NCBI GenBank assembly: GCA_965250195.1
Contig: OZ252295.1
Location: 1,437,528-1,501,527 of the forward strand
DNA length: 64,000 nt
Source of the DNA: Dehalococcoidia bacterium
GTDB lineage: Bacteria > Chloroflexota > Dehalococcoidia > Lucifugimonadales > UBA2962
Direction: 5' to 3'
Part shown: one piece after another, positions 47,919 through 64,000 of the stretch
How positions within the stretch are numbered: the stretch's first letter is position 1
Layout: each line of letters opens with the position of its first letter
Position numbers and translations under genes: made by a program
Notes under the pieces: generated by a model
Database searches by the model: none
What the model saw: only the letters and a program-made list of their open reading frames with translations
What the model was told of the DNA's origin: nothing

Positions 47919-47952
47919 CTAGCGCGGAAATTCTCCGCAGGAGTGGCTCGAC

Positions 47953-48336
47953 ATGCAGGCAGTTTCAGAAGGTCGGCTGGAGTTTCTTCCGGCGACCAGA
48001 ACCCCCCGTTATGACTCCAAAATCTTTAGCCAGCTATGGTGGCGTGCCTTGCGCGAACGCAAGGGTCTTGTGGTGGTCCACCCGCTCGGCAAGAACGCGA
48101 TTGTGCGGGTTGACATTGAGCCCACAGGCAGCCACCTCAGCCCCGAACAGGACTCCCGGGTCCACGCGGTCTGTGATGCCTATTTTCGCCAGCACGACTG
48201 TTTTAAAGGCCAGATATGGCTTTGGGAGATCACGTACTTTGCGCTCTGGCAGATGCGTGTCCGGCTGGAGGATGTTGACTCCTTCGTCGCTGATGTCCAG
48301 GCCGCGATCGGCGCGGGGGAAGCGGCGTCATGGTAG
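47953..48336 (+). CDS. Hypothetical protein (first gene of the element)
   Basis: AGGAG RBS; overlaps the next start. Confidence 0.65.
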   Translation: MQAVSEGRLEFLPATRTPRYDSKIFSQLWWRALRERKGLVVVHPLGKNAIVRVDIEPTGSHLSPEQDSRVHAVCDAYFRQHDCFKGQIWLWEITYFALWQMRVRLEDVDSFVADVQAAIGAGEAASW

Positions 48337-48911
48337 AGGCAACCCGAGCGGGCTATACTCCACAGGACGCGAAGTGGGTTAGGGCCATGGAGCGTACCGG
48401 ACTCTCCGAACAGACCATCGACGAAGTGGTCGCAAAAACAGAACCGAATCCAGAGGACTTGGCCACAGTAAATGAGGCGGCGAAAGAATTCGCGCTCAGT
48501 GCTAGCACTATCCATACATGGATACATGCAAACCACCTGTCGCGCCACGGCTTCCGACACACTGAGGCCGGCCGGCCGGCCCTCCTGGTCGACAAAACCG
48601 AAGTGGCAACCTTGAAGGCCAACCCGCCGAAGAATGGGCGCCCACGAAAAACCAACTTTCACTCGAAGCTGGAGGACCTTGTCACCCTCGATGCGGCCTC
48701 TGCGGACACCGACCTCAAAGTCGAGCGTATCTACGGATGGACCAAGCGTGGAATCTTGGCCATCCATGCACGAAAAAGGAGCCCCGCGCCTGGCGGTGGC
48801 ATGATCCTAGTCGACATTAACGAAGTGCGGGCCCTCAAGGACAATCCGCCGAAGAATGGGCGCCCACGAAAAACCAACTTTCACTATGGGATCACACTGA
48901 TCCACAACTAA
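48330..48911 (+). CDS. Tandem excisionase/MerR-like HTH protein with two AT-hook-like GRPRK motifs
   Basis: Two units: LATVNEAAKEFALSASTIHTWI...NGRPRK and LVTLDAASADTDLKVERIYGWT...NGRPRK. Confidence 0.7.
   Translation: MVEATRAGYTPQDAKWVRAMERTGLSEQTIDEVVAKTEPNPEDLATVNEAAKEFALSASTIHTWIHANHLSRHGFRHTEAGRPALLVDKTEVATLKANPPKNGRPRKTNFHSKLEDLVTLDAASADTDLKVERIYGWTKRGILAIHARKRSPAPGGGMILVDINEVRALKDNPPKNGRPRKTNFHYGITLIHN
48624..48885 (+). repeat. Perfect 40-bp direct repeat (48624-48663 and 48846-48885)
   Basis: CCGCCGAAGAATGGGCGCCCACGAAAAACCAACTTTCACT occurs twice. Confidence 0.95.
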
Positions 48912-48927
48912 AAATCTTACCTTCTGC

Positions 48928-49091
48928 TTGACTTAGTTTCAAAGCTGAGTTTAGTCTAAGCACGTCCTGAGCTGGGGCGTGCTTTTTCTTTGTCCGTTTT
49001 GTGACGATCCGGACAGTCTCTCCGTAGTCTCCCCAGCTCAGGTCCATCCAAATCGGAGGCCTACGAGATGGAGCGGACGAAGTTACTGTGA
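48928..49091 (+). promoter_or_regulatory. Early promoter with structured attenuator-like leader and 7-codon uORF
   Basis: TTGACT-18-TAGTCT; terminator-like hairpin 48958-48984 plus T tract; competing 12-bp stem 48966-48977/49031-49042; GGAGG then ATG at 49068. Confidence 0.55.
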
Positions 49092-49432
49092 GTCGCCTTG
49101 CAAGCGTTCTCCTGATCGACGAAGGGTCCTCTACCGAGGAAACCGCCCGGCGTATCAACGACGCGATCGCTAAGCTCGAAGGCGCCGGCTATCGCTTCCA
49201 GCAGGCGGCCCCGGTGAGCTACCCCAACCGACGATTCAACGCCGTCCGCTACCTAGTGGTAGGCCGCCGCCCCGAACCCGCTGACCAGGGCCCAGCCCCC
49301 AACTCCGCCACCGTTGTCAGCAACCTGGTCCGCGAGTTCATCAACAGCCCCGAGCTGCGCCGCATCATCGACGACCGGGCCCGGAACATCATCCAGGCGT
49401 TTGCAGACAGGCTCGGGGTGCCGGCCGAATGA
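49088..49432 (+). CDS. Hypothetical protein
   Basis: GTG start coupled to the uORF stop (GTGA); ATGA overlap downstream. Confidence 0.65.
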   Translation: MSRLASVLLIDEGSSTEETARRINDAIAKLEGAGYRFQQAAPVSYPNRRFNAVRYLVVGRRPEPADQGPAPNSATVVSNLVREFINSPELRRIIDDRARNIIQAFADRLGVPAE

Positions 49433-49638
49433 CTCGACGACGATGGCGAGCGTTCAGGCATTGGCTAGGCCACCGAATCTCCGGGCCCTGCCCGACGTTC
49501 AGCGAGACCGTCGAGCTGCTGCGCCAGTGGCCAAAGGAGGACCCGGAGTCATGGGGTGGCCTCATGGCCCTCTTTGCCAGCACCCTCAAACCCAGTATCC
49601 AACAACGCAAAGACGCTAGCGACGGCCATGTTGAATAG
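49429..49638 (+). CDS. Hypothetical small protein
   Basis: ATGA-coupled to the previous gene; 3' end overlaps a convergent ORF. Confidence 0.45.
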   Translation: MTRRRWRAFRHWLGHRISGPCPTFSETVELLRQWPKEDPESWGGLMALFASTLKPSIQQRKDASDGHVE

Positions 49639-49869
49639 TAGGCCAAGGCCCTCCACCGAGCGATCCACTTGCTCGGGGTCCGTAGGCTCGCCTCTCTGTT
49701 CCATCCAGTGGATCACCATGAGCCGAAATATCGGGCGGACCGCCTCCAGGCCCTCGTTCACCCGCCCGTCGGGATTTTGGAAAAGGCGCCAGGACCTCTC
49801 CACCCACGGCACTTGGCCTGATTCCCACCGTTCCAATAGTTCCGCCCTCGTCAGGGCCTTTTCCACCAT
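49549..49869 (-). CDS. Hypothetical protein, counter-oriented in the early region
   Basis: AAAGGAAG RBS shortly before ATG; protein-like helical composition. Confidence 0.55.
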   Translation of the reverse strand: MVEKALTRAELLERWESGQVPWVERSWRLFQNPDGRVNEGLEAVRPIFRLMVIHWMEQRGEPTDPEQVDRSVEGLGLLFNMAVASVFALLDTGFEGAGKEGHEATP

Positions 49870-50099
49870 TCGGCTTCCTTTCCGCCGGCGCTATCACGCC
49901 GGCTCGGGAGTATTACAGCAACGGCCGCATCTTAGCCCGTCTGTGGCCTGAAAGGAGGTCTGTTCGGAGAGTCCGACTGCTAACCACAGCCATGTGTGCA
50001 TGACGTCCGTTTAGGCCTCCCCAGGCCCCCGCGACGGACGTTCATTTACCCAGCATGGGGGCCGGCCGACGGGCCCGGCCCCCCCTGCGAACAAGGCCT

Positions 50100-50396
50100 A
50101 TGACGATCACCACCGAACAGGTTGAACAACTCCAGGAGCGCGAGGCTCGCGCCGTCTTGGTGCCGTTGAGCGAGCAACACGAGGCCGCCCACATCTTGCT
50201 CCGCGACGGAGGGCCGGTAGGCGCCTGCGGCAAACACGTCTTCGATTCGTCGATAGCCCTCGTTGAGATCCCGAACCCAGCTCACAAGGTCTGCTATTCG
50301 TGCTGGCGAAATATCTTCGCTGCCGGGGAACGGGATCGACCGAAAGCCGGGCACGGCACGGCCACGACGACCGGCGATTGGGCGTTTAAGACTTGA
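50100..50396 (+). CDS. Small putative Zn-binding protein
   Basis: H...ACGK...CYSC ligands; TTGA overlap with the primase start. Confidence 0.55.
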   Translation: MTITTEQVEQLQEREARAVLVPLSEQHEAAHILLRDGGPVGACGKHVFDSSIALVEIPNPAHKVCYSCWRNIFAAGERDRPKAGHGTATTTGDWAFKT

Positions 50397-52774
50397 CTCC
50401 TTACCTCTCGGCGCTGCTCGACCAGGTCCTCGCCCACGCGGACATCACCAGCCAGCCCGACAGCCGTGGACAAGCCAAAGGCTGGTGTCCGTGGCACGCC
50501 GACAAAGCTGGCGGCAATCCGTCTCTCTCCATCACCGTCAGTAGGGGCCTGGTCAAGTGTTTTGTCTGTGATGAGCCGAAGGAACGCCCGATCCTCGCGC
50601 TCGCCGAAGCGTGGGGCATCAAGTCGACCGCCGATGCGCAGAAAGAGTGGTCCGACATCAAGCCGTGGGAGAAAGAGATCGAGGCGACCTACGACTACCT
50701 CGACGAAGACGGCAAGGTGTTGTTTCAGGTGGTCCGCTTCACGGTGCCAGCGGGCATGGACAAAGGCGGCGTCCAGCGGTTCGCACAGCGCCGGCCCGTC
50801 GCCGAGGCCTTCGGCGGCTACAAATGGGACGTCAAGGGCGTTCCCCGAGTCCTCTACAACCTGCCGGCGATAAAGGTCGCGGCCGACGACGAATGGGTGT
50901 ACCTGGTCGAAGGGGAGAAAGACGCCGATCGCCTGATTGAGGCCGGGTTGCTGGCCACGACCGTCCCGATGGGCGCGAAGGGCGTGACGAAGTCCCAGGC
51001 TGCTATGCTGACGGGTCGCCGGGTCTGCGTTATCCCCGACGACGACGATGCTGGCCACCAGCATATGCACAAGTCCGGGAAATCCCTTCGTGAAGTGGTC
51101 GCGCAGGTCAAAGTCCTGGAGCTACCCGACTACGACGACAAGCCGCCCAAATCGGACGTCTCAGACTACCTGGACCACGGAGGGTCGATCCGCGAGCTGG
51201 CGGAGATCCTGGAGGCATCGCCCGAGTACAAGGTGTCGGCCGATGCCATCCACACCAATAGGTCCGGCCCGAACACGTTCGCGCACCCCCGCTACCGGTC
51301 GCAGGCGCTCGCGATCATCACCGAGCTGTCCAGCGCGGGTTATTTCGTGTGGGCTGAGAAGTTCGCCTACTACTTCGACAAGACGTCCCGAATCCTCATC
51401 CAGCTAGAGGAAGACAACGACGACCTGCGAATCCTGCTCAATGAGCGTTTCCATGTGAACCGCAGGGACGGTTTCTACGGCTACCTCGTCGAGCAGTTGC
51501 GCGTGGAAGCCGGGGCCCGCGGTGAGTCGTCGGTGATCCGCCTTCTCAGTCACTACGACCGCGGTTCCGAAACGATGCTGTTGGACATGGGTGCCGGACG
51601 GACCCTGCGCATACGGCCGGACGGCATCGAGGAGCGCTACAACGGCGAGGACGGGGCGCTGTTCGGCTCCGACTACACGATGTCGCCCTGGCGTTTCAAG
51701 CCAAACGCTCCGTCGGGAATCATGCCCGACATCCTCATCGAACCCATCCATTTCAGCAAGGACTCGGCCCTCGCGTTCAACCCTGATGAGCAGCGACTGT
51801 TGATGCTGTTATGGGTGGTATCCCTGCCGTTCTCGTCGGGCATGCCAACAAAGCCTCTGGCGCTCGCCGTAGGGCCCACCGGCTCCGGCAAAACGAACGT
51901 TTTTCGCCGTCTCGGTCGGATGCTGATGGGCCCCGAGTACGAGGTCGACACCATCGACAGCCAGAAAGACGACGACTTTTGGGTGGCCATCAGCACCGAG
52001 CCCCTGGTGTGCTTCGACAACGTCGAGGGCTATATCCGGTGGCTAGAGAACACGCTGGCGCGCGCGGCCACCGGCGTCCGCTTCATCAAGCGCAAGCTCT
52101 ACACGAACAACACCTCGATCAAGTACAAATCCAAGGCGGTGATCTGCCTCACGGCCATGTCGCCCAAGTTCCGACGCCCTGACATCGCCTCTCGCCTGCT
52201 GATCTTTCACCTCGACAAGATCGACGCCAAAAGGGAGGAGGCCGAGCTGTGGGCTGAGATAGACGACAACCGGGACGTGCTCATGTCCGACCTGGCAAAG
52301 ATGATCCAGCGGGTCCTAGCCGTCGAGCGCGCGGATCTGCCGGCTGTCGACGCCTCGATACGCATGGCCGATTTCGCACACACGGCCAGCCGGATCGGCG
52401 CCAGCCTGGGGGACGACGTTTCGGAACTCACTCAGCGCGTCCTCGGAAAGCTCACTACCACTCAGCGCTCTTACGCCGTCGAGGAAGACGACCTGGCTGC
52501 TGCGCTCGCCGTGTGGATAGACCAGGAGCCAGCACAGAAGGCGCTTGATGGGGGTAAAACCAACTCCGGCCGGCTCGTGTCGGTGCCGGTGCTGTTCGGA
52601 GAGCTAAAGGCTGTGGCCGGCGCTTCGTTTTTGCCGTGGCGCATCGCCGACACCCGCCAGCTCGGAGCCCGACTGAGAAACCTTCGTGAGCCGCTGAGCG
52701 ACACATATGACATCGAAACGTCCCGACCAGGCGGAAATAGCCACTGGCAGATCACTAAAAAAGTTGTTGGTTAG
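50393..52774 (+). CDS. Replicase: CHC2-type Zn finger + TOPRIM primase + P-loop (SF3-like) helicase + C-terminal wHTH-like region
   Basis: CPWH..D..PSLSI...CFVC; VYLVEGEKDA, IPDDDDAG, KSDVSDY; GPTGSGKT, VCFDNV. Confidence 0.88.
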   Translation: MTPYLSALLDQVLAHADITSQPDSRGQAKGWCPWHADKAGGNPSLSITVSRGLVKCFVCDEPKERPILALAEAWGIKSTADAQKEWSDIKPWEKEIEATYDYLDEDGKVLFQVVRFTVPAGMDKGGVQRFAQRRPVAEAFGGYKWDVKGVPRVLYNLPAIKVAADDEWVYLVEGEKDADRLIEAGLLATTVPMGAKGVTKSQAAMLTGRRVCVIPDDDDAGHQHMHKSGKSLREVVAQVKVLELPDYDDKPPKSDVSDYLDHGGSIRELAEILEASPEYKVSADAIHTNRSGPNTFAHPRYRSQALAIITELSSAGYFVWAEKFAYYFDKTSRILIQLEEDNDDLRILLNERFHVNRRDGFYGYLVEQLRVEAGARGESSVIRLLSHYDRGSETMLLDMGAGRTLRIRPDGIEERYNGEDGALFGSDYTMSPWRFKPNAPSGIMPDILIEPIHFSKDSALAFNPDEQRLLMLLWVVSLPFSSGMPTKPLALAVGPTGSGKTNVFRRLGRMLMGPEYEVDTIDSQKDDDFWVAISTEPLVCFDNVEGYIRWLENTLARAATGVRFIKRKLYTNNTSIKYKSKAVICLTAMSPKFRRPDIASRLLIFHLDKIDAKREEAELWAEIDDNRDVLMSDLAKMIQRVLAVERADLPAVDASIRMADFAHTASRIGASLGDDVSELTQRVLGKLTTTQRSYAVEEDDLAAALAVWIDQEPAQKALDGGKTNSGRLVSVPVLFGELKAVAGASFLPWRIADTRQLGARLRNLREPLSDTYDIETSRPGGNSHWQITKKVVG

Positions 52775-52788: not shown

Positions 52789-53010
52789 GTGAATCGGGCG
52801 ATTTTAGGTTCTGACAGACTTTTGAGATTTCAAGTGCATGTGAATGGCAACACCCTTCTATCCGACCACGGTGCGACGCACAAGCCATTCATTTGGAATC
52901 GGGCAAGTGAATAGACCATTCACTTATTCACATGCAAAAACGCAAGTGAATGGCAAGTGAATGGCTATTGAACGCCGATGGCAACAGGTAAAAACGTTTT
53001 TTATTCACTT
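52789..53010. repeat. Iteron cluster, putative replication origin
   Basis: Eight exact GTGAAT/ATTCAC hexamers in both orientations within ~220 AT-rich bp right after the replicase. Confidence 0.75.
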
Positions 53011-53034
53011 ATGCATCAGAAATGGGGGTCAAGA

Positions 53035-53400
53035 GTGTCTAGCAATTTGCTAAACCGCCTGAAAGATGCTGGTCGACCAGTAACTGATTCGCCCGCCTCG
53101 AGCGTCGTCGAAGACGCGCTCACCCGTCTCAAAAAGGGGCAGGAGTGGTTGATGTCGAAGCACGACCAGCTCGCCGGCGGACCTGGTACTCCTGCTGTCG
53201 ATCAGTTCTTAAAAGGCCTCGACACATGGGTCGAGCTGGAGAACGAAGTCAGGGCCGGCGGATTCAAAGGCTGCCCGATGGGAGCTGACGGCTGCCCCGA
53301 AGACGCGATCGTGACCTGCGATGCCTGCCGGTCGACGTCGGACGGTACGGACCAGGGTCAACTACTACCCGAGTTCCTGGGTCTCGAAGGCGCGGCATGA
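53035..53400 (+). CDS. Hypothetical protein with C-terminal Cys cluster
   Basis: GCP....GCP.....TCDAC; start uncertain (52978 lies inside the iterons). Confidence 0.6.
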   Translation: MSSNLLNRLKDAGRPVTDSPASSVVEDALTRLKKGQEWLMSKHDQLAGGPGTPAVDQFLKGLDTWVELENEVRAGGFKGCPMGADGCPEDAIVTCDACRSTSDGTDQGQLLPEFLGLEGAA

Positions 53401-53540
53401 CGACCATCTCTCGGCGACAAACCGGAGTCGTGGAACACAACCGGGTACCACTGGAGACCTGCCACCGCGACCATCTGGTGGCCGTTACGAATGGCAATCG
53501 TGATCGAGTCTGTCAAAACGGAGTGAAAGGTAACGCATGA
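53397..53540 (+). CDS. 47-aa hypothetical protein
   Basis: Not in the ORF track; joins both neighbours by ATGA overlaps. Confidence 0.4.
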   Translation: MTTISRRQTGVVEHNRVPLETCHRDHLVAVTNGNRDRVCQNGVKGNA

Positions 53541-56758: not shown

Positions 56759-56837
56759 CCGTGACAGGTACGGAAATGGATCCAAATTCGGGGTGCCCGA
56801 AACCACATGTTTACGGGCCACGTTCGGAGAATCAATC

Positions 56838-58171: not shown

Positions 58172-58186
58172 CGAGGGTTTCCCTGG

Positions 58187-58227
58187 AAACGAAAGGGCCC
58201 CGGCCGATGTCGGGGCCCTTTCGTTTT
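58187..58227. terminator. Bidirectional intrinsic terminator between converging modules
   Basis: AAACGAAAGGGCCCCGGC-cgat-GTCGGGGCCCTTTCGTTTT. Confidence 0.85.
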
Positions 58228-58248: not shown

Positions 58249-58908
58249 CTATCGAGAGTTTGTCAGCGCCCACAGGACGCCGACGGCCACAATCACCGCC
58301 CCCAGCCCGAGCTTTTTTACTGCCGACGCCGGCGCTCCGGGCACCGTTCCGTCAGGCGGTGTGACAATAGGCGGGGGCGGCGCCGGCTCGTCAAACGTCA
58401 ACGAGTCGACCAGGTCCTGGACGCTGAGCGCCGGTGCCGGCATTTCCTCGATCGGTGTGAGGGTGGCCGACGTCGGCTCGGGTTCTATAACGGACAGGAC
58501 CGTTGCCGGCGGCGGGGCGACATCGGCTGCAGTCGGCCCAGGATCTGCTGGTTTCCCGTCGAGCAGCCCGGAATTGCGACCGGGTATGAACGTCGCGAGA
58601 TCCAGCGTGTAGTGGCCTTCCGCAACGTAGTCTGACCTCGGGAACGTTACGATGCTCGCCACGGACCCGTCGCGCCTGGTGAGATCAAACCGCATCATGC
58701 CCGACCACGTTCCCTCCGGGATCTGAATAAACCCGGTGATCCGGTTCGGCTCCGTCTGTCCGACGTAGACCCGCCCCTCCACCCGGCCGAGTTGCGTGAT
58801 GTCGAAGGGGCCGTAATGGTCTATCGGGCCGCTCGTGGTCGCCGTCGTCACCCGGTAGCTCACAAACTCGACGTTGTTCTTGGCCCACAGGTTCATCCAG
58901 GTGCTCAT
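58249..58908 (-). CDS. Putative virion membrane protein: beta-rich N-domain, Pro-rich linker, C-terminal TM anchor
   Basis: ...PAPPPPIVTPP...KKLGLGAVIVAVGVLWALT; AGGA RBS. Confidence 0.6.
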   Translation of the reverse strand: MSTWMNLWAKNNVEFVSYRVTTATTSGPIDHYGPFDITQLGRVEGRVYVGQTEPNRITGFIQIPEGTWSGMMRFDLTRRDGSVASIVTFPRSDYVAEGHYTLDLATFIPGRNSGLLDGKPADPGPTAADVAPPPATVLSVIEPEPTSATLTPIEEMPAPALSVQDLVDSLTFDEPAPPPPIVTPPDGTVPGAPASAVKKLGLGAVIVAVGVLWALTNSR

Positions 58909-58921
58909 CGTGTCCTGCCTT

Positions 58922-59137
58922 TCATTCTTCGTTTAGGTGGCGGGTCAGCTCCGAGGTGATCGCGCTAGCGCCCTCGGTATGGCCGTCCCGTTCGAGTACT
59001 CGTGCGATCGCGAGAGCTAATAACTGATTCGTTCGGGCCAGATGATCGAGCCGCTTTTCGAGCCGCCACATGAACCACAGTAGGACGACCCCCGCGATGC
59101 CGCCGTTTATTAAGAGTTCGACGATTCGGTCTTCCAA
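58922..59137 (-). CDS. Holin-like single-TM protein (YvrJ-like pattern)
   Basis: LLINGGIAGVVLLWFMWRLEKRLDHL followed by a coiled coil; AGGAGG RBS. Confidence 0.55.
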   Translation of the reverse strand: MEDRIVELLINGGIAGVVLLWFMWRLEKRLDHLARTNQLLALAIARVLERDGHTEGASAITSELTRHLNEE

Positions 59138-59218: not shown

Positions 59219-59689
59219 TCACCGGCAGCCTCGTTGCCTGACTCGCCGGGATGGAGGCAACATCGGGGTCGGCGTCGGATCGGTGACCTTTAGGAGCGTG
59301 AGGATCGAGTGCGGTTCATCCGGTGCGCCGCCCACGAAGGAGAGGCCCGGGGCGTCGGGCACGTCGCCCTTTTGGCTTGACGCCGCGGTGAATTTCATCA
59401 GGTAGCCGGAGCCTTGCCTGATAAAGCGGTCTGCCGCCGGCGCCGCGTCCCACGTAGTGACGTGGGCGTTGCGGGATCTATCGGTGGGGGTAGCTTGTTC
59501 CGCGTCGTCTTTGTCGGCGATCCACAGGTACCGGACGTCGCCGCCGACTATGCGGATCAGCTCCGCCCGGAAATTCTGATCAATTTGGGCGCCGCCGAAC
59601 GAGTCGACGGCGAACTTTTCCGCCCCGTCAGGAGAAAAGACGCCGTCGACCTGCTGGTCGTTTATTTCGATGCCGCGTACTTGTGCCAT
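59219..59689 (-). CDS. Putative virion protein; 3' end possibly frameshifted
   Basis: Within the structural operon; see findings. Confidence 0.55.
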   Translation of the reverse strand: MAQVRGIEINDQQVDGVFSPDGAEKFAVDSFGGAQIDQNFRAELIRIVGGDVRYLWIADKDDAEQATPTDRSRNAHVTTWDAAPAADRFIRQGSGYLMKFTAASSQKGDVPDAPGLSFVGGAPDEPHSILTLLKVTDPTPTPMLPPSRRVRQRGCR

Positions 59690-59707
59690 GATCGTTTCCC
59701 TGGAAAC

Positions 59708-60298
59708 CTAGTCGCTCTCGACCATCCACTCCAACAGCAACTCGTTGCCCGACGTCGCCGGGTCGATGTGGATCTTGACGTTGACCACGTCGGCGGCGTT
59801 GCCGCCGGCGACCACCTCATACTCGATCGTCAAGGTTAGGGTTTCGCCGTCGTCGATCGTGGCGTCCGTAAACGTGAAGTGGAACAGGTCTATCACGCTC
59901 TCGCCGGCGACGGTCCTGGTCTGCCCGTTGGCCGTCTGCTCGGCGATGTTGTTGCTGGCGGCCAGGATGCAGTTTGTTCGGGCCGTGGCTCCGCCTACGT
60001 TCGTTGTGGACGTGTCTTGCGTCTTCACCCGAACCATCAGAGATCCGGAGATGATGACCTTACGCGGCACAGGAATAGCGATCGTGAAAAGGGCGGTCGT
60101 GCCGGTGTTCTCCAGGCCGATGTACTGGGTGTCGTCCTGGGCCGCCGGGCCCGCCTGTTTAATGGCGGCGTCTGCGTCCATACGGACGAGCGCCAGCGTC
60201 CCGACCGGTTCCGCGTCCCCGTTGACCGCGACCGCAGATAGCGGGTTCTTAAAGAGGGCGATCTCTCCCGCTCTTGCTGGTCCAGTTGCAACAACCAT
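59708..60298 (-). CDS. All-beta putative vertex/spike protein
   Basis: Alternating beta-strand pattern (FTIAIPV, SLMVRVKT, FHFTFT, LTLTIEYEV, VNVKIHID), Thr/Ala-rich. Confidence 0.55.
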   Translation of the reverse strand: MVVATGPARAGEIALFKNPLSAVAVNGDAEPVGTLALVRMDADAAIKQAGPAAQDDTQYIGLENTGTTALFTIAIPVPRKVIISGSLMVRVKTQDTSTTNVGGATARTNCILAASNNIAEQTANGQTRTVAGESVIDLFHFTFTDATIDDGETLTLTIEYEVVAGGNAADVVNVKIHIDPATSGNELLLEWMVESD

Positions 60299-60894
60299 TA
60301 CGACTGCGTCCCCACGCTACGTAGGCCAGAGCTGGCGTCTCCGAGCGCCAAGAACGGGAACTCGCTGGGCTGTAGCGAGAGCCGGGCTTCCGAACGCTCA
60401 ACGACTCGGATCACGTTGTTCTGAATGTATTCGCCGCCCTCCAGGACCGGACCCACGTGGGCCGGATCTCTGGTCTGTGTGTCCTTGACGACGCGCAGGC
60501 GCATCCGGATGTCCAGGTCCACCGGAGTCGGCGTCGCGGCTGGCCTGAATATCACCACCGCCGCAATGGTCGCCGGGCTCGTCGAGCCGACCAGCACGCT
60601 GTTCGAGGATGTTTCAGCGACGATGCTGTCGTTTTCTGACGACCACCGGTTGCGGCCGGGGAGCGTTGCGACCAGGCGCTGCGGGCTCGGGAACATCGGC
60701 CGTATGACCTCCAGCTCCATGTACACGACCTCGGGCGCTCCGCCCTGGTTCGTGACGGACCACCGGCTCAAAACCATCAGGCCCTGGTCCAGCTCGATGG
60801 CGGTTCTTACGAAATGGCTTTCCTGTCCGGCCTGAGCGAGCATCGGAATCGCATCCAGGCCTCGCCGGGATCTGGCAAAAAGTCTAATGGTCAT
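60298..60894 (-). CDS. Putative structural protein (beta-rich)
   Basis: Coupled to both neighbours; GGGGT RBS. Confidence 0.55.
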   Translation of the reverse strand: MTIRLFARSRRGLDAIPMLAQAGQESHFVRTAIELDQGLMVLSRWSVTNQGGAPEVVYMELEVIRPMFPSPQRLVATLPGRNRWSSENDSIVAETSSNSVLVGSTSPATIAAVVIFRPAATPTPVDLDIRMRLRVVKDTQTRDPAHVGPVLEGGEYIQNNVIRVVERSEARLSLQPSEFPFLALGDASSGLRSVGTQS

Positions 60895-61150
60895 CTATCA
60901 CCCCTAAAAGCACTCTCTTGAAATCTGAGTCCGCGACGTCGCGGGCCAGTAAAACCGGAGTTGACGCCGGCACGAGGCGCGCTGGCCCCGGCGGCGGTTC
61001 GCCTTCCCGCCGGCCGCCCGGCGGCAACTGGTCGGCCTGGTCCTGGTCCGAACTCCCGGTTAGTAGAAGCCATCCCAGCGCGCCGATGACCAGCACCAAC
61101 AATCCGCTGTTTGATTGACCCACCTTCGCTCCTGTCATCTTGATGGCCAC
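60884..61150 (-). CDS. Small single-TM membrane protein
   Basis: GLLVLVIGALGWLLLTG followed by a Pro-rich segment. Confidence 0.55.
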   Translation of the reverse strand: MAIKMTGAKVGQSNSGLLVLVIGALGWLLLTGSSDQDQADQLPPGGRREGEPPPGPARLVPASTPVLLARDVADSDFKRVLLGVIDDH

Positions 61151-61154: not shown

Positions 61155-61703
61155 CTAGGGGCCGTTCTGGACTACACAGATAACGCTTAGCAGTCCGGCT
61201 GTGGGAGCGACTGGCGCCTTGACCTTCACCCCTTGAAAAAGCGTCCAGGGATTCGGGCTCGCTGCGCCGCTTGGCAGAAAAATTGTGCGCCTACCGGCTG
61301 ACACCGGCCCTGATAGGTCCAGCTCGGCCGGGCTCTGATTGTTGTTGGTGACGTCACCGACCAAAATCACCGAAACGCCCTCGTCGAGTTTGTTGTCGAC
61401 CACGTAGAACCAGGCCGTGGCCTGGTTCAGGTCGGCCAGCTCCGCCGGCAGGTGTTCGTTGGTGTCGCGGATCGCTTCATCTGTGAGCATTTGATAGACC
61501 GTGAACGTAGCGGCCGGGCCGCTCTCGCCAATCGAAGCGATCCCCAGGTTGTCTTGTTTGCGATCCGTCAACGCGGCGCGAAGCTGGTCAGGCCCGATAA
61601 CGATGACGGCTACCGCGGGGGCGCTTCCGTGGCCGCCGAGCTGGGCGGTGTCGATCGCGCCGCCGATCTGGTCCAAGAGCTGCTGTTGTGCCTGTGGGTT
61701 CAT
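61155..61703 (-). CDS. Putative structural protein (C-terminal beta-sandwich-like)
   Basis: ATGA-coupled; WFYVVDNKLDEGVSVILVG...GVKVKAPVAPTAGLLSVICV. Confidence 0.55.
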   Translation of the reverse strand: MNPQAQQQLLDQIGGAIDTAQLGGHGSAPAVAVIVIGPDQLRAALTDRKQDNLGIASIGESGPAATFTVYQMLTDEAIRDTNEHLPAELADLNQATAWFYVVDNKLDEGVSVILVGDVTNNNQSPAELDLSGPVSAGRRTIFLPSGAASPNPWTLFQGVKVKAPVAPTAGLLSVICVVQNGP

Positions 61704-62218
61704 GCTTTTTTGGGCGTCCGTGAGACGACCTGGCCGATCAGGACCAGGGCCGCGATTCCGAGGCCGATCATGGCTACCGTCTTGAAGTCGCCGAAGATCC
61801 CGCCGATGGCGGTCGACGGCGGCGGCGTCGCTGGCGGCGGAGCGTCGTTGGATACCTCGAACGGCATCGACGTCGGGTGTGTGAAAGGTAGGAACGGGAA
61901 TGACTGAGCGTGCACGATGAACTGATACCGGCCGACCACGCTGGGCGCCGAGATGTCGAGAAACGCGGTTCCCGACAAGCCAGCGGTTGAACCCCTGCGA
62001 AAGACCTCGTTACCGGCTGCGTCGAGGATCTGGAAGTCCGGGCCGTGGATGAGCTGCTGGTTAACCCCGAGCGTCACCAGCCTGATCGGCTCGCGTGGTT
62101 CCACCAGGCCGCCGTGCTGAATCGGCGTGAACTGGTCGCCGGTGCGTCGCTCGATCGAGACGCTGTGAGATCCCAGCTCGGCGATGCGCCTGGAGCGCCC
62201 GACAAGTCGACTAGACAA
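61700..62218 (-). CDS. Putative virion membrane protein: Ig-like beta domain, Pro linker, C-terminal TM
   Basis: APSVVGRYQFIV, PPPATPPP, VAMIGLGIAALVLIG followed by a basic tail. Confidence 0.6.
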   Translation of the reverse strand: MSSRLVGRSRRIAELGSHSVSIERRTGDQFTPIQHGGLVEPREPIRLVTLGVNQQLIHGPDFQILDAAGNEVFRRGSTAGLSGTAFLDISAPSVVGRYQFIVHAQSFPFLPFTHPTSMPFEVSNDAPPPATPPPSTAIGGIFGDFKTVAMIGLGIAALVLIGQVVSRTPKKA

Positions 62219-62576
62219 GGGACTCCCCCGTCGTTTCTAGGGAAACCTTGCCCGATCCGTCCGGCAGTTCGGGAGCTGCGACGTCCGCCGGCGTTGATGG
62301 GCTCGCCTGCTCCAGCTCCCGCGGCAAGTACCACGATCGCCGGACCTGGTCGACCGTGAGGGTGCCGAACTTGTGGTGACGCCGTATCAGCCGTAGGGCC
62401 CTAATGAGCCTCCAGAGGAGCGGAGGATTCCGGGACCAGTCGCGGCCGCACGAACAGACGACGTGCTCCAGGTAGCCAGGTAGGAGCCGCTGGTGCGGCG
62501 CCTCGATAACTTTCTCTTTGCAGTCGGGGCACCGGACGATGATCTGGTCCGGGCCCCGAGGCGTCGTTGCCCTCAA
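62211..62576 (-). CDS. Zn-ribbon protein
   Basis: RCPDC...VCSCG; GGAGG RBS before TTG. Confidence 0.6.
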   Translation of the reverse strand: MRATTPRGPDQIIVRCPDCKEKVIEAPHQRLLPGYLEHVVCSCGRDWSRNPPLLWRLIRALRLIRRHHKFGTLTVDQVRRSWYLPRELEQASPSTPADVAAPELPDGSGKVSLETTGESLV

Positions 62577-62598
62577 CCCATTCCTCCAGCTTCCCGAG

Positions 62599-62630
62599 CC
62601 CGCGGGCCAGCTCGCTTGCCGGCCCGCGGG
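62599..62630 (-). terminator. GC-rich hairpin after the capsid gene (partial terminator or mRNA stabiliser)
   Basis: CCCGCGGGCC / GGCCCGCGGG perfect 10-bp stem; no clear U tract. Confidence 0.45.
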
Positions 62631-62667
62631 TCTTGTAGTTCGCCTCTAAACGGACCGGTGGGCCCGC

Positions 62668-63792
62668 TTAAACGAGGGCGCGGGCCATAGGAGACAGCGG
62701 AGCCTCGGTCTGTTGGTATCGCTCCCACAGGACCAGGGTGTCGTCTCCGGCTGCCCTGGTGCTCAGGAGAAGGCCGAGAACCCAATCGCCCGAGTCCGCC
62801 CGCCGCATGTCGAACCCGTAGTCGTTGCCGAACGGGTTGGACGGCGTTGTCATCGGGCGCAGGTCGATGGGTACGATGCCCTCCGGTGCGCCGCCCCCGA
62901 AGTCGGGGACGTCGTCAATGCCCATCGGGGTGGATATCGGAAGCTCGGACAGCCACGACTCGATGTGGGCCCTGACGAACTCGATTCCCGTCTTGTTGTT
63001 GCGCAGCGCAATCTCGGTGAGCTGGTCGGAGGACCTGTTGGGCACCGTTGCCACGGCATCTTGCTCGGCTATGCCGATCCGCTTCATGTAGCCGCCCGCC
63101 GGCACGTTGATCGTCTCCGAGTTGAAATCGGAGGTCGTGCCGGCGTTGGCGTGCACGGTCGCGGCCCACGCCGGGATCATGCCGGTGACCGATTGCCTCT
63201 CCCGCGGGAAAGCGACCTCTTGCCTGGCCATCTCAGCCTGGATCTCGGCGTCGGTGCCAGTGACCCTGTGGATGGTGAAGGCTGCGACCGCTGACGCGAT
63301 CGTGACCGTGTCATCGGCGACGTCGTTGCCGTACATCGTCCACTCGGCCTGGAGCTGCGTTTCGGCGTGCGCCGGAATGAAGGCCGACAGGTCGTACGGG
63401 TTTATCCGCCCCCACTTGTCCCTTGGGCGCGAGCCGGCGTGGAACACCGTGTTGACGGGCACGTATGCAGCGGACGGCGCCGCGACGTCGCCTCCACCGT
63501 GGCCGGGTCCGAATCCATCCAGCACGTTTAGCGAGTGCTGGAGCACCCCGCCCATGGCCCCATCGACGGCCGGGAGCGAGAAGTAGGTGTGAGAGCCACC
63601 GTAGACTCTCATGTTGCCGATCAACCGGAAAATGCCGTCCGGCTGGTTGGCGCCGTCGAGAGTTGCCGACGGGGTTATCTCGATCGTGACGTCGAGCTGG
63701 GTAATCAGCCCGGTGCGCTCAAGGTCTGTGCTGACTACGGAGTCGGCCCCCCAAGTCGCCGTGGCCGCCTGTGTGACTCTTCGCTTACGCAT
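62668..63792 (-). CDS. Putative double jelly-roll major capsid protein (STIV B345-like)
   Basis: 374 aa, two beta-rich halves; motif order W.A...DLERTGLITQLDVTI / IFRLIGNMRV / FIPA / TIHRVT / IP / VPAGGYMKR / LTEIAL / IDLR / FDM; GAGGT RBS; recognised by eye. Confidence 0.75.
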   Translation of the reverse strand: MRKRRVTQAATATWGADSVVSTDLERTGLITQLDVTIEITPSATLDGANQPDGIFRLIGNMRVYGGSHTYFSLPAVDGAMGGVLQHSLNVLDGFGPGHGGGDVAAPSAAYVPVNTVFHAGSRPRDKWGRINPYDLSAFIPAHAETQLQAEWTMYGNDVADDTVTIASAVAAFTIHRVTGTDAEIQAEMARQEVAFPRERQSVTGMIPAWAATVHANAGTTSDFNSETINVPAGGYMKRIGIAEQDAVATVPNRSSDQLTEIALRNNKTGIEFVRAHIESWLSELPISTPMGIDDVPDFGGGAPEGIVPIDLRPMTTPSNPFGNDYGFDMRRADSGDWVLGLLLSTRAAGDDTLVLWERYQQTEAPLSPMARALV

Positions 63793-63861
63793 CGGGTGTT
63801 TACCTCTCTATTGGCGTGAAAGGGGCACTGACGGCCCGGTTCTATCTGAAAGGGGCCGGGC

Positions 63862-63999
63862 CTAGACTTCGCCGGCGAGTGGGTCCATCTCCATGACGTT
63901 GGGCGGATCCTGGGCCACGCGCCCGGCCTGACCCAGCCATTGCTCGACGGCCGCCGCCGTTCCGCCGCCGGCGGGCGGGGTGCCTGTCGCTTTGCCTAC
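63862..63999 (-). CDS. 3' end of the gene upstream of the capsid gene (truncated by window)
   Basis: Open minus frame ...VGKATGTPPAGGGTAAAVEQWLGQAGRVAQDPPNVMEMDPLAGEV*. Confidence 0.5.
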   Translation of the reverse strand, partial: VGKATGTPPAGGGTAAAVEQWLGQAGRVAQDPPNVMEMDPLAGEV

Positions 64000-64000
64000 G

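What the first reader, a model, noticed from the sequence alone, without database searches (positions are those of the whole stretch)
47919..64000. Candidate tailless double-jelly-roll provirus integrated at tRNA-Asp in a Chloroflexota-like host
Seen: right after the tRNA-Asp CCA the gene content changes to tightly coupled ORFans. A rightward replication/regulation module converges at a bidirectional terminator (58187-58227) with a leftward module of small TM-anchored and beta-rich proteins headed by a capsid-sized gene. No terminase, portal, tail or tape-measure gene is visible. Established: this layout (DJR capsid, small membrane proteins, vertex proteins) is typical of internal-membrane Varidnaviria such as Turriviridae, Corticoviridae and Tectiviridae. 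Inference: a temperate STIV-related virus of a bacterium, combining that capsid with a DnaG-type primase-helicase replicon. I know of no characterised virus of this kind from Dehalococcoidia/SAR202, but novelty needs a search to confirm.
Basis: partly seen in the sequence, partly recalled or inferred. Interest (0 to 1): 0.95.

Follow-up and report, generated by a model that had tools for sequence, protein, structure and literature searches.

The report
Tailless jelly-roll provirus in Chloroflexota
A 23.7-kb virus genome sits integrated in a tRNA-Asp gene of a Chloroflexota bacterium; its coat protein is related to that of the archaeal virus STIV, it has no tail genes and no DNA-packaging motor, and it belongs to a little-known virus family found in groundwater, sediment and marine metagenomes.

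Summary
Extending the contig shows a 23,742-bp element bounded by an exact 51-nt repeat of the tRNA-Asp 3' end, with a tyrosine integrase beside the right repeat. It was missing from 40 of 40 related genomes searched, and 3 of 3 same-genus genomes examined have an empty site. The 374-aa protein has no Pfam, PHROG or PDB sequence hit. A 63-sequence family profile matches the STIV coat protein over both jelly rolls (hhalign 96.2% against one sequence, 97.8%, E 9e-13, against a STIV profile). The other 114 ORFs of four jelly-roll viruses and a reversed control score 1.4% or less. No terminase, portal or tail gene was found, and no FtsK/HerA packaging ATPase: the only P-loop is in the primase-helicase. 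A sister provirus of 23,962 bp lies in tRNA-Asn of another Chloroflexota genome with the same circular gene order. The conserved core is a ParB-type polyvalent protein, a JAB-like protein, a membrane protein, the capsid protein and a Zn-ribbon protein. The closest described kind is the ATPase-less 'Odin group' of jelly-roll viruses (7-11 kb). This is a larger, temperate bacterial variant.

The parts
47842..47918 (+). Host tRNA-Asp(GTC), copy 1. Its 5' half is host-type and its 3' 50 nt lie inside the left att repeat.
   Evidence: ARAGORN. The 5' half matches the tRNA-Asp of three same-genus genomes. The minimum-energy fold is a cloverleaf.
47869..47919 (.). attL: a 51-nt exact direct repeat running from the anticodon stem to one base past CCA.
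   Evidence: Alignment of the two tRNA regions. The last 40 nt of the tRNA occur at only two places in the genome.
47953..48336 (+). 127-aa ORFan, the first gene after attL.
   Evidence: ORF and GC3 pick. No Pfam hit.
48330..48911 (+). 193-aa HTH protein with an internal duplication. It is a candidate excisionase or regulator next to att.
   Evidence: HTH_17 E 5.8e-6 and MerR-type HTH. An 81-nt internal repeat at 48583-48663 and 48805-48885 is 85% identical. The function is inferred.
49088..50396 (.). Three small ORFans: 114 aa (+), 106 aa (-) at 49549-49869, and 113 aa (+).
   Evidence: No significant Pfam hit.
50393..52774 (+). 793-aa primase-helicase with an N-terminal CHC2 Zn-ribbon, a Toprim (DnaG-type) domain and a C-terminal SF3-type P-loop helicase. 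It carries the only Walker A motif in the element.
   Evidence: Pfam Zn_ribbon_DnaG, Toprim_2 and RNA_helicase, all weak. NCBIfam PRK07078 1.4e-24 and dnaG domain 2.9e-11. Residues 27-385 are 27-35% identical to phage DnaG-type primase/helicases. Walker A scans. A 29%-identical homologue lies in the sister provirus.
52836..52967 (.). Cluster of iteron-like repeats (GTGAATGGC and variants, both orientations) in the 203-bp gap after the primase-helicase gene. It is a candidate replication origin.
   Evidence: Repeats. Five of the window's 15 matches with <=1 mismatch, and all 3 exact matches, lie here. Sequence read. The role is inferred.
52978..53540 (+). Two ORFans of 140 aa and 47 aa.
   Evidence: No Pfam hit for the 140-aa protein. 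The 47-aa ORF was not scanned.
53537..54040 (+). 167-aa protein with a C-terminal J-domain (HPD motif).
   Evidence: Pfam DnaJ E 5.4e-5, below the curated cut-off. The HPD motif is seen in the translation.
54113..54799 (+). 228-aa Cys-rich protein with many CxxC pairs.
   Evidence: Translation. Weak DnaJ Zn-finger matches.
55304..56098 (+). 264-aa small serine recombinase (resolvase/invertase type).
   Evidence: Pfam Resolvase 1e-35. NCBIfam. Homologues lie in the sister provirus (30%) and in the G192 locus (45%).
56417..57660 (+). Three small genes of 113 aa, 159 aa (weak ASCH-like) and 79 aa.
   Evidence: ASCH E 0.0068.
57668..58171 (+). 167-aa conserved protein of unknown function, the last gene of the rightward module.
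   Evidence: Homologues occur in 5 related loci and in the sister provirus. No Pfam, NCBIfam or PADLOC hit.
58186..58227 (.). Hairpin with a 19-bp stem between the convergent modules, a candidate bidirectional terminator.
   Evidence: dG -50.2, z -5.9. Not found by the consensus scan.
58249..59137 (-). 219-aa protein with a C-terminal membrane anchor, and a 71-aa membrane protein.
   Evidence: Hydropathy. No family hits for the 219-aa protein. The 71-aa ORF was not scanned.
59219..60894 (-). Three soluble ORFans of 156, 196 and 198 aa. They are candidate vertex or minor capsid proteins by position only.
   Evidence: No Pfam hit. No homologues in 66 related loci. No match to known penton or spike proteins in insensitive single-sequence hhalign.
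60884..61150 (-). 88-aa membrane protein.
   Evidence: Hydropathy. Not scanned against Pfam.
61155..61703 (-). 182-aa protein.
   Evidence: Found in 9 of 66 related loci by iterative HMM. No Pfam or PHROG hit.
61700..62218 (-). 172-aa protein with a C-terminal membrane anchor.
   Evidence: Hydropathy. Found in 13 of 66 related loci.
62211..62576 (-). 121-aa Zn-ribbon protein, the conserved gene directly after the capsid gene.
   Evidence: CxxC pairs in the translation. Found in 31 of 66 loci. Only a weak match (24.9%) to the PM2 P14 Zn finger.
62668..63792 (-). 374-aa major capsid protein candidate, homologous to the STIV-type double jelly-roll coat protein.
   Evidence: 78 homologues, none with a Pfam domain. 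78 clusters at 50% identity. hhalign against STIV B345 gives 96.2%, E 2.5e-9, 291 columns, and against a STIV profile 97.8%, E 8.7e-13.
63862..64000 (-). 3' part of the 251-aa membrane protein gene (whole gene L001:1862-2617, extended coordinates 63862-64617). It is the conserved gene directly before the capsid gene.
   Evidence: Found in 52 of 66 loci by iterative HMM. It lies directly upstream of the capsid gene in 13 of 18 long loci. The alignment shows Gly-rich hydrophobic stretches.
64000..64000 (.). Marker for the 7.7 kb of the element that lie beyond the window end. Coordinates are in locus L001, and the extended window coordinate is the L001 position plus 62000.
- A ~92-aa Zn-finger ORF, L001:3046-3324 (-).
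- A 124-aa JAB/MPN-like protein, L001:3329-3703 (-).
- An 833-aa polyvalent-type protein with a ddrB-like ParB-superfamily domain, L001:3700-6201 (-).
- Proteins of 269 aa and 152 aa that head the leftward module, L001:6381-7190 and 7194-7652 (-).
- A 409-aa tyrosine integrase, L001:8318-9547 (+).
- A second tRNA-Asp-like gene, L001:9584-9660 (+). Its 5' half comes from the element and its 3' part is attR (the 51-nt repeat, L001:9611-9661).
   Evidence: - Translations and gene pick.
- Prok-JAB E 0.023, with an HxHx7SxxD motif seen by eye. JAB-like homologues occur in 22 of 66 loci and are fused to the polyvalent protein in some.
- PF18763 1.3e-24 at residues 155-289 and phrog_5143 3.8e-61. Homologues of 617-2248 aa sit at the same position in relatives.
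- Positional counterparts of 247 and 182 aa occur in the sister provirus.
- Phage_integrase 2.4e-17 and XerC/D-type models ~1e-30.
- tRNA called by ARAGORN and by Rfam at 33.5 bits against a 29-bit cut-off. Alignments. Its minimum-energy fold is not a cloverleaf.

Best explanation
The region is the left two thirds of an intact-looking 23,742-bp temperate provirus. The virus is tailless and probably has an internal membrane, and its capsid protein is of the STIV (double jelly-roll) type. SHOWN: the element lies between two exact 51-nt repeats of the tRNA-Asp 3' end. A tyrosine integrase lies beside the right repeat. The repeat copy on the integrase side carries an element-derived 5' half, so the attachment site of the free element would include a whole tRNA-like gene. 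Relatives lack the element. The 374-aa family is homologous to the STIV coat protein. INFERRED: the integrase recombines attP with the tRNA and leaves a working tRNA-Asp. The HTH protein next to attL helps excision. The excised circle replicates from the iteron cluster beside the primase-helicase gene, using the host polymerase. The leftward operon builds the particle: coat trimers over a membrane that holds the 251-aa protein and four small anchored proteins, with the ORFans downstream of the coat gene forming vertices. There is no FtsK/HerA motor, so the DNA is probably enclosed as the shell and membrane assemble around it, as proposed for the ATPase-less 'Odin' and FLiP groups. The ParB-type polyvalent protein and JAB-like protein, encoded just upstream, are probably packaged with the DNA. 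They may condense or mark the genome and act on entry into the next host.
For: Borders and mobility:
- Two tRNA-Asp genes share an exact 51-nt repeat found only twice in the genome.
- An integrase lies beside the right repeat.
- Housekeeping genes lie outside the element: rpoC on the left, and SDR, malic enzyme and isocitrate lyase on the right.
- The capsid gene is missing from 40 of 40 relatives' genomes.
- 3 of 3 same-genus genomes examined have tRNA-Val and tRNA-Asp followed within about 2.5 kb by the block that resumes 26.9 kb downstream in this genome.
- 3 of 400 other genomes of the phylum carry the gene.

Capsid:
- The family profile A2 matches STIV B345 at 96.2%, E 2.5e-9, over 291 columns, and the STIV-family profile A4 at 97.8%, E 8.7e-13, over 294 columns.
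- Of 115 ORFs of PM2, STIV, PRD1 and FLiP, only B345 matches; the next best scores 1.4%.
- The reversed profile scores 0.2%, and the shallower profile A1 scores 88.3%.

Virus-type module:
- Five proteins of the leftward module have membrane segments.
- Large proteins downstream of the capsid gene in relatives carry the endosialidase-chaperone domain of phage fibres (6.3e-8) or BNR domains.

No tailed-phage genes.

No packaging ATPase:
- The only P-loop in the element is the primase-helicase.
- The same holds in the sister provirus.
- The P-loop proteins found in distant relatives are IstB/DnaC-type.

Second complete provirus:
- It has a 53-nt repeat of the tRNA-Asn 3' end, with copies 23,962 bp apart.
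- It shares the same circular gene order and a 53%-identical capsid protein.
- Its capsid protein is sister to this one in a quick tree (SH-aLRT 96).

Precedent: ATPase-less jelly-roll viruses with a conserved small gene before the capsid gene and a ParB nuclease are described in passages of PMC5894146 and PMC8812541.
Against: - No 3D model was obtained, so the jelly-roll fold is inferred from homology only.
- The signal needs the family profile. The STIV profile against the single 374-aa sequence gives 0.2%.
- A profile search of all PDB sequences found only chance hits.
- Pfam, including the STIV coat family PF22405 seen on STIV homologues, did not hit the protein.
- The coat proteins of PM2, PRD1 and FLiP show no similarity.
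- No penton, spike or packaging protein could be recognised in this element.
- The genes downstream of the coat gene are ORFans with no homologues even in the sister provirus.
- Nothing here shows excision, particles or expression (one search gave contigs only).
- ParB-type polyvalent proteins and JAB domains are also common in conjugative elements and plasmids (recalled, not tested).
- One weak PHROG 'tail protein' hit exists.
- A 24-kb dsDNA genome without a packaging motor has no characterised precedent among the ATPase-less jelly-roll groups read about here.
Confidence: 0.72

Rival explanations
1. The element is a helper-dependent or defective element. It is a real jelly-roll capsid module but cannot package DNA by itself. 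It either relies on the packaging ATPase of a co-resident virus (satellite-like) or is a decaying provirus.
For: There is no packaging ATPase and no recognisable penton or spike. The genome is two to three times larger than the ATPase-less groups described (7-11 kb in a passage of PMC5894146; FLiP record 9,174 bp).
Against: The lack of an ATPase is a family trait and not a sign of decay. It holds in two complete proviruses of nearly equal size (23,742 and 23,962 bp), and no FtsK/HerA-type protein was seen in the parts held of 18 long related loci. All genes are open and the capsid protein keeps the family's invariant residues. The host genome holds no second capsid gene of this family, though helpers of other kinds were not searched for.
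Confidence: 0.12
2. The element is a non-viral integrative element (plasmid-like or conjugative-type island). Its ParB-polyvalent, JAB and membrane-protein module serves DNA transfer or defence, and the 374-aa protein is a jelly-roll-like protein that does not form a capsid.
For: Polyvalent ParB and JAB proteins are typical of conjugative elements as well as phages (recalled). Cellular jelly-roll homologues of capsid proteins exist (passages of PMC8812541). IMG/VR holds only one distant relative and PHROGs holds none.
Against: No relaxase, coupling protein or type IV secretion ATPase is present, and no P-loop protein exists apart from the primase-helicase. The homology is to a viral coat protein over both halves. 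The cellular homologues described are not linked to mobile elements. The conserved element size and the fibre-type domains in relatives fit a capsid-limited virus.
Confidence: 0.08
3. The element is a remnant or odd member of the tailed phages, and the 374-aa protein is an HK97-fold capsid protein.
For: Its length of 374 aa is typical of HK97-fold capsid proteins (recalled). There is one weak PHROG 'tail protein' hit for a neighbouring ORF (E 0.0064).
Against: No terminase, portal, protease, scaffold or tail family was hit in 30 proteins against Pfam or 10 against PHROGs. The specific profile match is to the STIV jelly-roll coat protein. tblastn of the protein against 50,697 phage records found nothing.
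Confidence: 0.03

Closest known systems
'Odin group' of double jelly-roll capsid viruses (Yutin et al. 2018, PMC5894146; includes Huginn virus of Ca. Odinarchaeum, PMC9246712). Passages read.
   Same: No packaging ATPase. The capsid protein is most like that of STIV. A conserved, otherwise unknown small gene lies directly before the capsid gene and a second conserved gene lies after it. A ParB-superfamily protein is present. Integrase is present in some members. Sequences come from sediment-type metagenomes and are assigned partly to bacteria.
   Different: Genomes there are 7-11 kb, against about 24 kb here. No PD-(D/E)XK nuclease or family-B polymerase was found here. Here the ParB domain is part of a polyvalent protein of 833 aa (617-2248 aa in relatives), and the replicon is a primase-helicase. 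Whether the capsid sequences cluster together could not be tested, because the group's sequence lists are in supplements that were closed.
Turriviridae / 'STIV group' (STIV B345 coat protein, Pfam PF22405).
   Same: The capsid protein is homologous by profile comparison over both jelly rolls. Both have a tyrosine integrase and a temperate lifestyle. Small membrane proteins are present.
   Different: All STIV-group genomes encode an STIV-like packaging ATPase (passage), and none is present here. No direct Pfam PF22405 hit. No match to the STIV penton or turret proteins. The taxa named for that group in the figure legend seen do not include Chloroflexi.
Corticoviridae (PM2), Tectiviridae (PRD1) and Finnlakeviridae (FLiP).
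   Same: The general layout is the same: a tailless module in which one capsid-sized gene is flanked by small membrane-protein genes. PM2-like viruses are also common as proviruses (passage). FLiP also lacks a packaging ATPase.
   Different: No detectable similarity of capsid proteins (0.3% with PM2; <=1.4% for all other ORFs). No rolling-circle Rep, protein-primed polymerase or inverted terminal repeats here. FLiP is a 9.2-kb ssDNA virus.

Membership tests
tRNA-integrating temperate element (tyrosine-integrase type) | Tyrosine recombinase encoded next to an attachment site | tested here: met
   Phage_integrase 2.4e-17 and XerC/D-type models ~1e-30. The gene ends 36 nt before the second tRNA-Asp.
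tRNA-integrating temperate element (tyrosine-integrase type) | Direct repeats that duplicate the 3' part of a tRNA gene and bound the element | tested here: met
   A 51-nt exact repeat occurs at only two places in the 2.65-Mb genome. The same design, with a 53-nt tRNA-Asn repeat, is seen in the sister provirus.
tRNA-integrating temperate element (tyrosine-integrase type) | Absent from the same site in related genomes | tested here: met
   3 of 3 same-genus genomes examined have the empty arrangement. The capsid gene is present in 0 of 40 relatives.
tRNA-integrating temperate element (tyrosine-integrase type) | Excision to a circular form (attP/attB junctions) | tested here: inconclusive
   Only short-read contigs of 4 runs of one sample were available, and they break inside the tRNA repeat.
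Double jelly-roll capsid viruses (Bamfordvirae, prokaryotic groups) | Major capsid protein with two vertical jelly rolls | tested here: inconclusive
   Homology to the STIV coat protein is supported (96.2% and 97.8%; controls). There is no direct Pfam or PDB sequence hit.
Double jelly-roll capsid viruses (Bamfordvirae, prokaryotic groups) | FtsK/HerA-type genome packaging ATPase (present in most groups) | tested here: not met
   The only Walker A motif is in the primase-helicase. No ATPase family appears in the Pfam scans. The same holds in the sister provirus.
Double jelly-roll capsid viruses (Bamfordvirae, prokaryotic groups) | Single jelly-roll penton protein and vertex spike | tested here: inconclusive
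   No match to STIV A223/C381, PRD1 P31/P5 or PM2 P1, but these tests were insensitive. Fibre-type domains occur in relatives only.
Double jelly-roll capsid viruses (Bamfordvirae, prokaryotic groups) | Small membrane proteins encoded around the capsid gene (internal membrane) | tested here: met
   Five proteins of the leftward module have hydrophobic segments. The conserved 251-aa family has Gly-rich hydrophobic stretches. That these proteins sit in a virion membrane is inferred.
Turriviridae / STIV group (Yutin 2018) | Capsid protein related to STIV B345 | tested here: met
Turriviridae / STIV group (Yutin 2018) | STIV-like packaging ATPase in every genome | tested here: not met
   The feature is taken from a passage of PMC5894146. 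It is absent here.
Odin group (Yutin 2018) | No packaging ATPase | tested here: met
Odin group (Yutin 2018) | Conserved small gene of unknown kind directly before the capsid gene | tested here: met
   The 251-aa family is found in 52 of 66 loci and lies directly upstream in 13 of 18 long loci. Here it is a membrane protein, whereas the paper reports no similarity to known proteins. Homology to 'cons1' was not tested.
Odin group (Yutin 2018) | ParB-like and PD-(D/E)XK nucleases | tested here: inconclusive
   A ParB-superfamily domain is present (PF18763; ParB_N in a relative). No PD-(D/E)XK family was hit in the Pfam scans.
Odin group (Yutin 2018) | Genome of 7-11 kb | tested here: not met
   The two complete proviruses are 23,742 bp and 23,962 bp.
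Odin group (Yutin 2018) | Capsid protein clusters with Odin-group capsid proteins | not testable with these tools
   No Odin-group sequence was available. Accessions are in figures and supplements, which are closed. tblastn against 50,697 deposited phage and virus records found no relative.
Tailed phages (Caudoviricetes) | HK97-fold capsid, terminase large subunit and portal | tested here: not met
   No such family was hit in 30 proteins against Pfam or 10 against PHROGs.

The most novel reading that the evidence does not exclude
This is the first complete, host-anchored genome of a widespread family of temperate Chloroflexota viruses that package a ~24-kb dsDNA genome into an STIV-type jelly-roll capsid without any packaging motor. 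That is two to three times the genome size of the known motor-less jelly-roll viruses. The ParB-type polyvalent protein and the conserved membrane protein next to the capsid gene would take over genome selection and condensation during assembly.
Probability: 0.3. Interest if true: 0.8.

Novelty: new variant of a known kind. Interest (0 to 1): 0.6.

Why it matters
The literature searches run here found no description of a jelly-roll capsid virus assigned to Chloroflexota, Dehalococcoidia or SAR202. This element ties one such family to a host with exact ends, a complete gene set and a sister provirus. The family has 78 sequence clusters in public metagenomes, yet it is almost absent from the viral collections searched (1 distant contig in IMG/VR, none among 50,697 deposited phage records, no PHROG). 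Standard virus-detection methods therefore appear to miss it. It also bears on an open question in the evolution of this virus kingdom: how DNA gets into a jelly-roll capsid without the FtsK/HerA motor, and up to what genome size. A 24-kb dsDNA genome with a ParB-type protein beside the capsid gene makes that question testable.

Tried and rejected
Structure and complex tools.
Each retry came after at least 20 other calls, as its message allowed.
- The protein-atlas search failed three times. The second and third tries used stored homologues, as its message suggested.

Sequence searches that found nothing.
- A profile search of PDB sequences gave only chance hits to an ER membrane protein.
- Pfam and PHROGs gave nothing for the capsid protein.
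- tblastn of the capsid protein against deposited phages gave nothing.
- The first IMG/VR scan found nothing. The second found one distant relative.

hhalign tests that found nothing.
- The families of the 251-, 121-, 172- and 182-aa proteins were compared with 115 ORFs of PM2, STIV, PRD1 and FLiP. Nothing scored above 25%.
- Ten single element proteins were compared with known penton, spike and ATPase proteins. Nothing scored above 1.3%.
- The 196- and 198-aa neighbours are not detectable paralogues.

Reads.
- The look-up of sequencing runs listed 4 runs of one sample and one study, and no RNA holder was listed.
- Read laying gave Logan contigs only.
- One contig per run covers 14.7-16.5 kb of the element with 0-1 differences.
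- The contigs end inside the tRNA repeat, where depth jumps because other organisms share that tRNA.
- No attP or attB junction, coverage step or bridging of attR could be read from this. The small skips and loose ends listed there have short sides (21-30 nt) and were not interpreted.

CRISPR. A crude repeat scan of the genome found one coding tandem repeat and no array, so spacer matching was not possible.

G192 locus. No att repeat was found in the 37 kb held.

Literature.
- 'double jelly-roll' + 'Dehalococcoidia' gave 0 papers.
- 'double jelly-roll' + 'Chloroflexi' + 'provirus' gave 3 papers. For PMC8812541 the passages read do not describe such a provirus. For the other two only the title and abstract start were seen.
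- 'Varidnaviria' + 'Chloroflexota' gave 10 papers, 8 listed. Only titles and abstract starts were seen.
- 'JXWO01000006' gave 0 papers.
- The supplements of PMC5894146, which hold the Odin-group contig lists and alignments, were closed. They may show that distant members of this family were already counted there.

Rejected readings.
- An HK97 capsid (see rivals).
- A cellular DUF2961-type jelly-roll protein: according to the passage that family is not linked to mobile elements, whereas this gene lies inside one.
- Core syntenic DNA.

Full report
WHAT IS THERE. The window is part of a single 2.65-Mb contig. tRNA-Val (47673-47749) and tRNA-Asp(GTC) (47842-47918) follow rpoC. A GC3-guided gene pick and the ORF lists give a rightward block of small genes up to 58171. 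A convergent gap follows, holding a 19-bp-stem hairpin at 58186-58227 (dG -50.2, z -5.9). After it comes a leftward block that runs off the window end. Base composition does not differ from the host (about 0.62-0.63 G+C).

BORDERS. I extended the contig (L001). A second tRNA-Asp(GTC) lies 23.7 kb downstream. The last 51 nt of the first tRNA region, from the anticodon stem to one base past CCA, are repeated exactly there and nowhere else in the genome. The 5' half of copy 1 matches the tRNA-Asp of three same-genus genomes, while that of copy 2 does not. Copy 2 does not fold as a cloverleaf by minimum free energy, although ARAGORN and Rfam both call it a tRNA (33.5 bits against a 29-bit cut-off). 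A 409-aa tyrosine integrase ends 36 nt before copy 2. The element therefore measures 23,742 bp from repeat start to repeat start. Ordinary metabolic genes lie to the right: a short-chain dehydrogenase, malic enzyme and isocitrate lyase.

NOT CORE DNA. The capsid-type gene is found in none of 40 related genomes, including 9 of the same genus. It occurs in 3 of 400 other genomes sampled evenly from the phylum. All 5 same-genus genomes queried hold the left flank. In the 3 examined further, tRNA-Asp is followed after about 2.5 kb (a sulfate permease gene) by the isocitrate-lyase block. In this genome that block resumes 26.9 kb downstream of the tRNA. The 3 kb directly right of the element (dehydrogenase and malic enzyme) is also not syntenic, because its dehydrogenase lies elsewhere in the relatives.

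HOST. The first 500 residues of RpoC give 120 listed hits. The 7 that carry an organism name are 'Chloroflexi bacterium' (4) or 'SAR202 cluster bacterium' (3), at 73-76% identity. Genome records holding relatives of the capsid gene are titled 'Chloroflexota bacterium' (1) and 'Dehalococcoidia bacterium' (2). One NCBI homologue is named from a Dehalococcoidia bacterium.

THE 374-AA PROTEIN. It has no Pfam or PHROG family, no PDB relative by profile-to-sequence search and no relative among 50,697 deposited phage records. It does have 78 homologues of similar length, none with a Pfam domain, and 78 clusters at 50% identity in the larger library.

A 63-sequence alignment (A2) was compared with the coat proteins of solved jelly-roll viruses:
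- PM2 P2 scores 0.3%.
- STIV B345 scores 96.2%, E 2.5e-9, over 291 aligned columns, covering residues 7-351 of the query profile and 5-310 of 345 in STIV.
- Among all 115 ORFs of at least 80 aa from PM2, STIV, PRD1 and FLiP, B345 is the only match. The next best scores 1.4%.
- Against a profile of 13 STIV-type coat proteins (A4; all 16 homologues found carry PF22405) the match rises to 97.8%, E 8.7e-13, over 294 columns.
- The column-reversed profile scores 0.2%, and a shallower profile (A1) scores 88.3%.

Against this, the STIV profile finds nothing in the single 374-aa sequence (0.2%). The signal therefore lies in the family profile. I take the homology as well supported and the double jelly-roll fold as inferred from it.

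WHAT ELSE THE ELEMENT ENCODES.

Rightward module:
- An HTH protein next to attL (HTH_17).
- A 793-aa primase-helicase, with a DnaG-type Zn-ribbon and Toprim domain plus an SF3-type P-loop.
- A cluster of iteron-like repeats in the gap after it.
- A J-domain protein and a Cys-rich protein.
- A small serine recombinase (1e-35).
- A conserved 167-aa protein of unknown function.

Leftward module, in order of transcription:
- Proteins of 152 aa and 269 aa.
- An 833-aa protein with a ddrB-like ParB-superfamily domain (1.3e-24; phrog_5143 3.8e-61).
- A 124-aa JAB-like protein (Prok-JAB E 0.023; HxHx7SxxD motif seen by eye).
- A small Zn-finger ORF.
- A 251-aa membrane protein.
- The capsid protein.
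- A Zn-ribbon protein.
- Eight further small proteins, four of them with membrane anchors.

No terminase, portal, protease, scaffold or tail family was hit in 30 proteins scanned against Pfam or 10 against PHROGs. The only exception is one weak 'tail protein' hit (E 0.0064). The only Walker A motif in all six frames of the element is in the primase-helicase. A looser pattern finds nothing credible.

RELATIVES. Scans found 66 related loci: 3 in genomes and 63 in metagenomes. One distant contig was found in IMG/VR (after a first scan found none). Comparison of 18 long loci and iterative profile searches of all 66 loci show a conserved core:
- A ParB-type polyvalent protein of 617-2248 aa, sometimes fused to the JAB-like domain.
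- The membrane protein directly before the capsid gene, in 52 of 66 loci.
- The capsid gene, in 66 of 66 loci.
- The Zn-ribbon gene directly after it, in 31 of 66 loci.

Downstream, relatives carry large proteins with the endosialidase-chaperone domain of phage fibres (6.3e-8). The IMG/VR relative has a BNR-repeat protein there. In this element the corresponding genes are ORFans. The P-loop proteins seen in distant relatives are IstB/DnaC-type or DnaB/RepA-type replication proteins. None is of the FtsK/HerA type.

A SECOND COMPLETE PROVIRUS. A 25,756-bp contig of a 'Chloroflexota bacterium' genome (G041) carries an exact 53-nt repeat of the 3' part of tRNA-Asn at positions 89-141 and 24051-24103, that is 23,962 bp apart. 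Between the repeats lie homologues of:
- the ParB-type protein (46% identity),
- the JAB-like protein (48%),
- the membrane protein (38%),
- the capsid protein (53%),
- the 167-aa protein (26%),
- the serine recombinase (31%),
- the primase-helicase (29%),
- the integrase (28%).

As a circular map the order is the same as here. Its only P-loop is again the primase-helicase. The two capsid proteins are sisters in a quick tree (SH-aLRT 96). Two independent insertions into different tRNAs, with nearly the same length, fit a genome whose size is set by a capsid.

HOW IT MOST LIKELY WORKS. The integrated state, the borders, the gene set and the capsid homology are shown. The following steps are inferred:
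- The integrase recombines attP, which carries a whole tRNA-Asp-like gene, with the host tRNA.
- The HTH protein at the other side of attP acts as a regulator or excision factor.
- The circle replicates from the iteron region by means of the primase-helicase and the host polymerase.
- The serine recombinase resolves multimers.
- The leftward operon makes a tailless particle with an STIV-type shell over a membrane.

The family has no packaging motor. The most economical model is the one proposed for the Odin and FLiP groups (passages): the shell assembles around the genome. I suggest, as a hypothesis only, that the ParB-type protein and the conserved membrane protein beside the capsid gene select and condense the DNA. 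I further suggest that the polyvalent and JAB proteins travel with the DNA into the next cell.

COMPARISON WITH WHAT IS KNOWN. Passages of Yutin et al. 2018 (PMC5894146) describe six groups of prokaryotic jelly-roll viruses.
- The STIV group includes bacterial proviruses, but all of its genomes encode an STIV-like ATPase. This feature was tested here and is not met.
- The Odin group lacks the ATPase, has a conserved small gene before the capsid gene, has ParB and PD-(D/E)XK nucleases and capsid proteins most like STIV and PM2. Its genomes are 7-11 kb.

This family shares the first three Odin features and the STIV likeness. It differs in having about 24-kb genomes, no detected PD-(D/E)XK nuclease and a different replicon. 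I could not test sequence clustering with Odin members, because their accessions are in figures and supplements.

Passages of Krupovic et al. 2022 (PMC8812541) confirm that ATPase-less jelly-roll groups are accepted as viruses. One Odin member, Huginn virus, is targeted by host CRISPR spacers (passage of PMC9246712). Skuldviruses are a separate group and do have an ATPase (passages of the preprint 10.1101/2021.07.29.453957). My searches found no description of a jelly-roll provirus of Chloroflexota or Dehalococcoidia.

VERDICT. The element is best filed as a new, larger, temperate bacterial variant of the known ATPase-less jelly-roll viruses, carrying an STIV-type capsid protein. It is not a member of the Turriviridae and is not a categorically new kind. 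It is interesting as the first host-anchored, complete example of a family that standard viral catalogues almost entirely miss. It is also a test case for motor-less packaging of a 24-kb genome. The main weakness is the lack of any structural model or evidence of particles.

Noticed in passing
window 52836-52967: The 203-bp gap after the primase-helicase gene holds a cluster of GTGAATGGC-type repeats in both orientations. All 3 exact copies in the 64-kb window lie here. It looks like an iteron-type origin or operator.
   Followed up: partly
window 53537-54799: Two adjacent genes resemble separate pieces of DnaJ. One is a 167-aa protein with a J-domain and HPD motif (E 5.4e-5, below the Pfam cut-off). 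The other is a 228-aa Cys-rich protein with weak matches to the DnaJ zinc-finger region. Together they may recruit the host Hsp70 for replication or assembly.
   Followed up: partly
L001:9584-9660: The copy of tRNA-Asp at the right end is a hybrid. Its 5' half comes from the element and differs from the host type. ARAGORN and Rfam call it a tRNA, but its minimum-energy fold is not a cloverleaf. It may be a pseudo-tRNA that serves only as part of attP.
   Followed up: partly
L001:9661-12700: The 3 kb right of the element (small ORFs, a short-chain dehydrogenase and malic enzyme) is not syntenic with three same-genus genomes. Those genomes have a sulfate permease gene there and carry the dehydrogenase about 1 Mb away. 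The tRNA-Asp site may be a general hot spot of rearrangement.
   Followed up: partly
L089/L090 (G042 contig 5) and L091/L019 (G042 contig 11): One 'Dehalococcoidia bacterium' genome carries two capsid genes of this family on different contigs. Each has its own giant polyvalent protein (1556 and 2248 aa, 47% identical to the ParB-domain region here).
   Followed up: partly
L092 (IMG/VR contig, 43% G+C): The only IMG/VR relative has an ArdC-N plus M78-peptidase protein where this element has the ParB-type protein. It also has a 174-aa gene directly before the capsid gene and a BNR-repeat protein downstream. An anti-restriction-type protein upstream of the capsid gene may be a constant of the family.
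   Followed up: partly
L001:2618-3045 (extended 64618-65045): A stretch of about 430 bp has no convincing ORF inside the otherwise tightly packed leftward module. It lies between the small Zn-finger ORF and the 251-aa membrane protein gene.
   Followed up: no
window 48583-48663 and 48805-48885: The HTH protein gene contains an internal 81-nt duplication (85% identical). It repeats a motif ending in NPPKNGRPRKTNFH.
   Followed up: no
G000 contig positions 1814930-1815332 (outside the window): A crude CRISPR scan found only a coding-type tandem repeat here and no CRISPR array anywhere in the genome.
   Followed up: no
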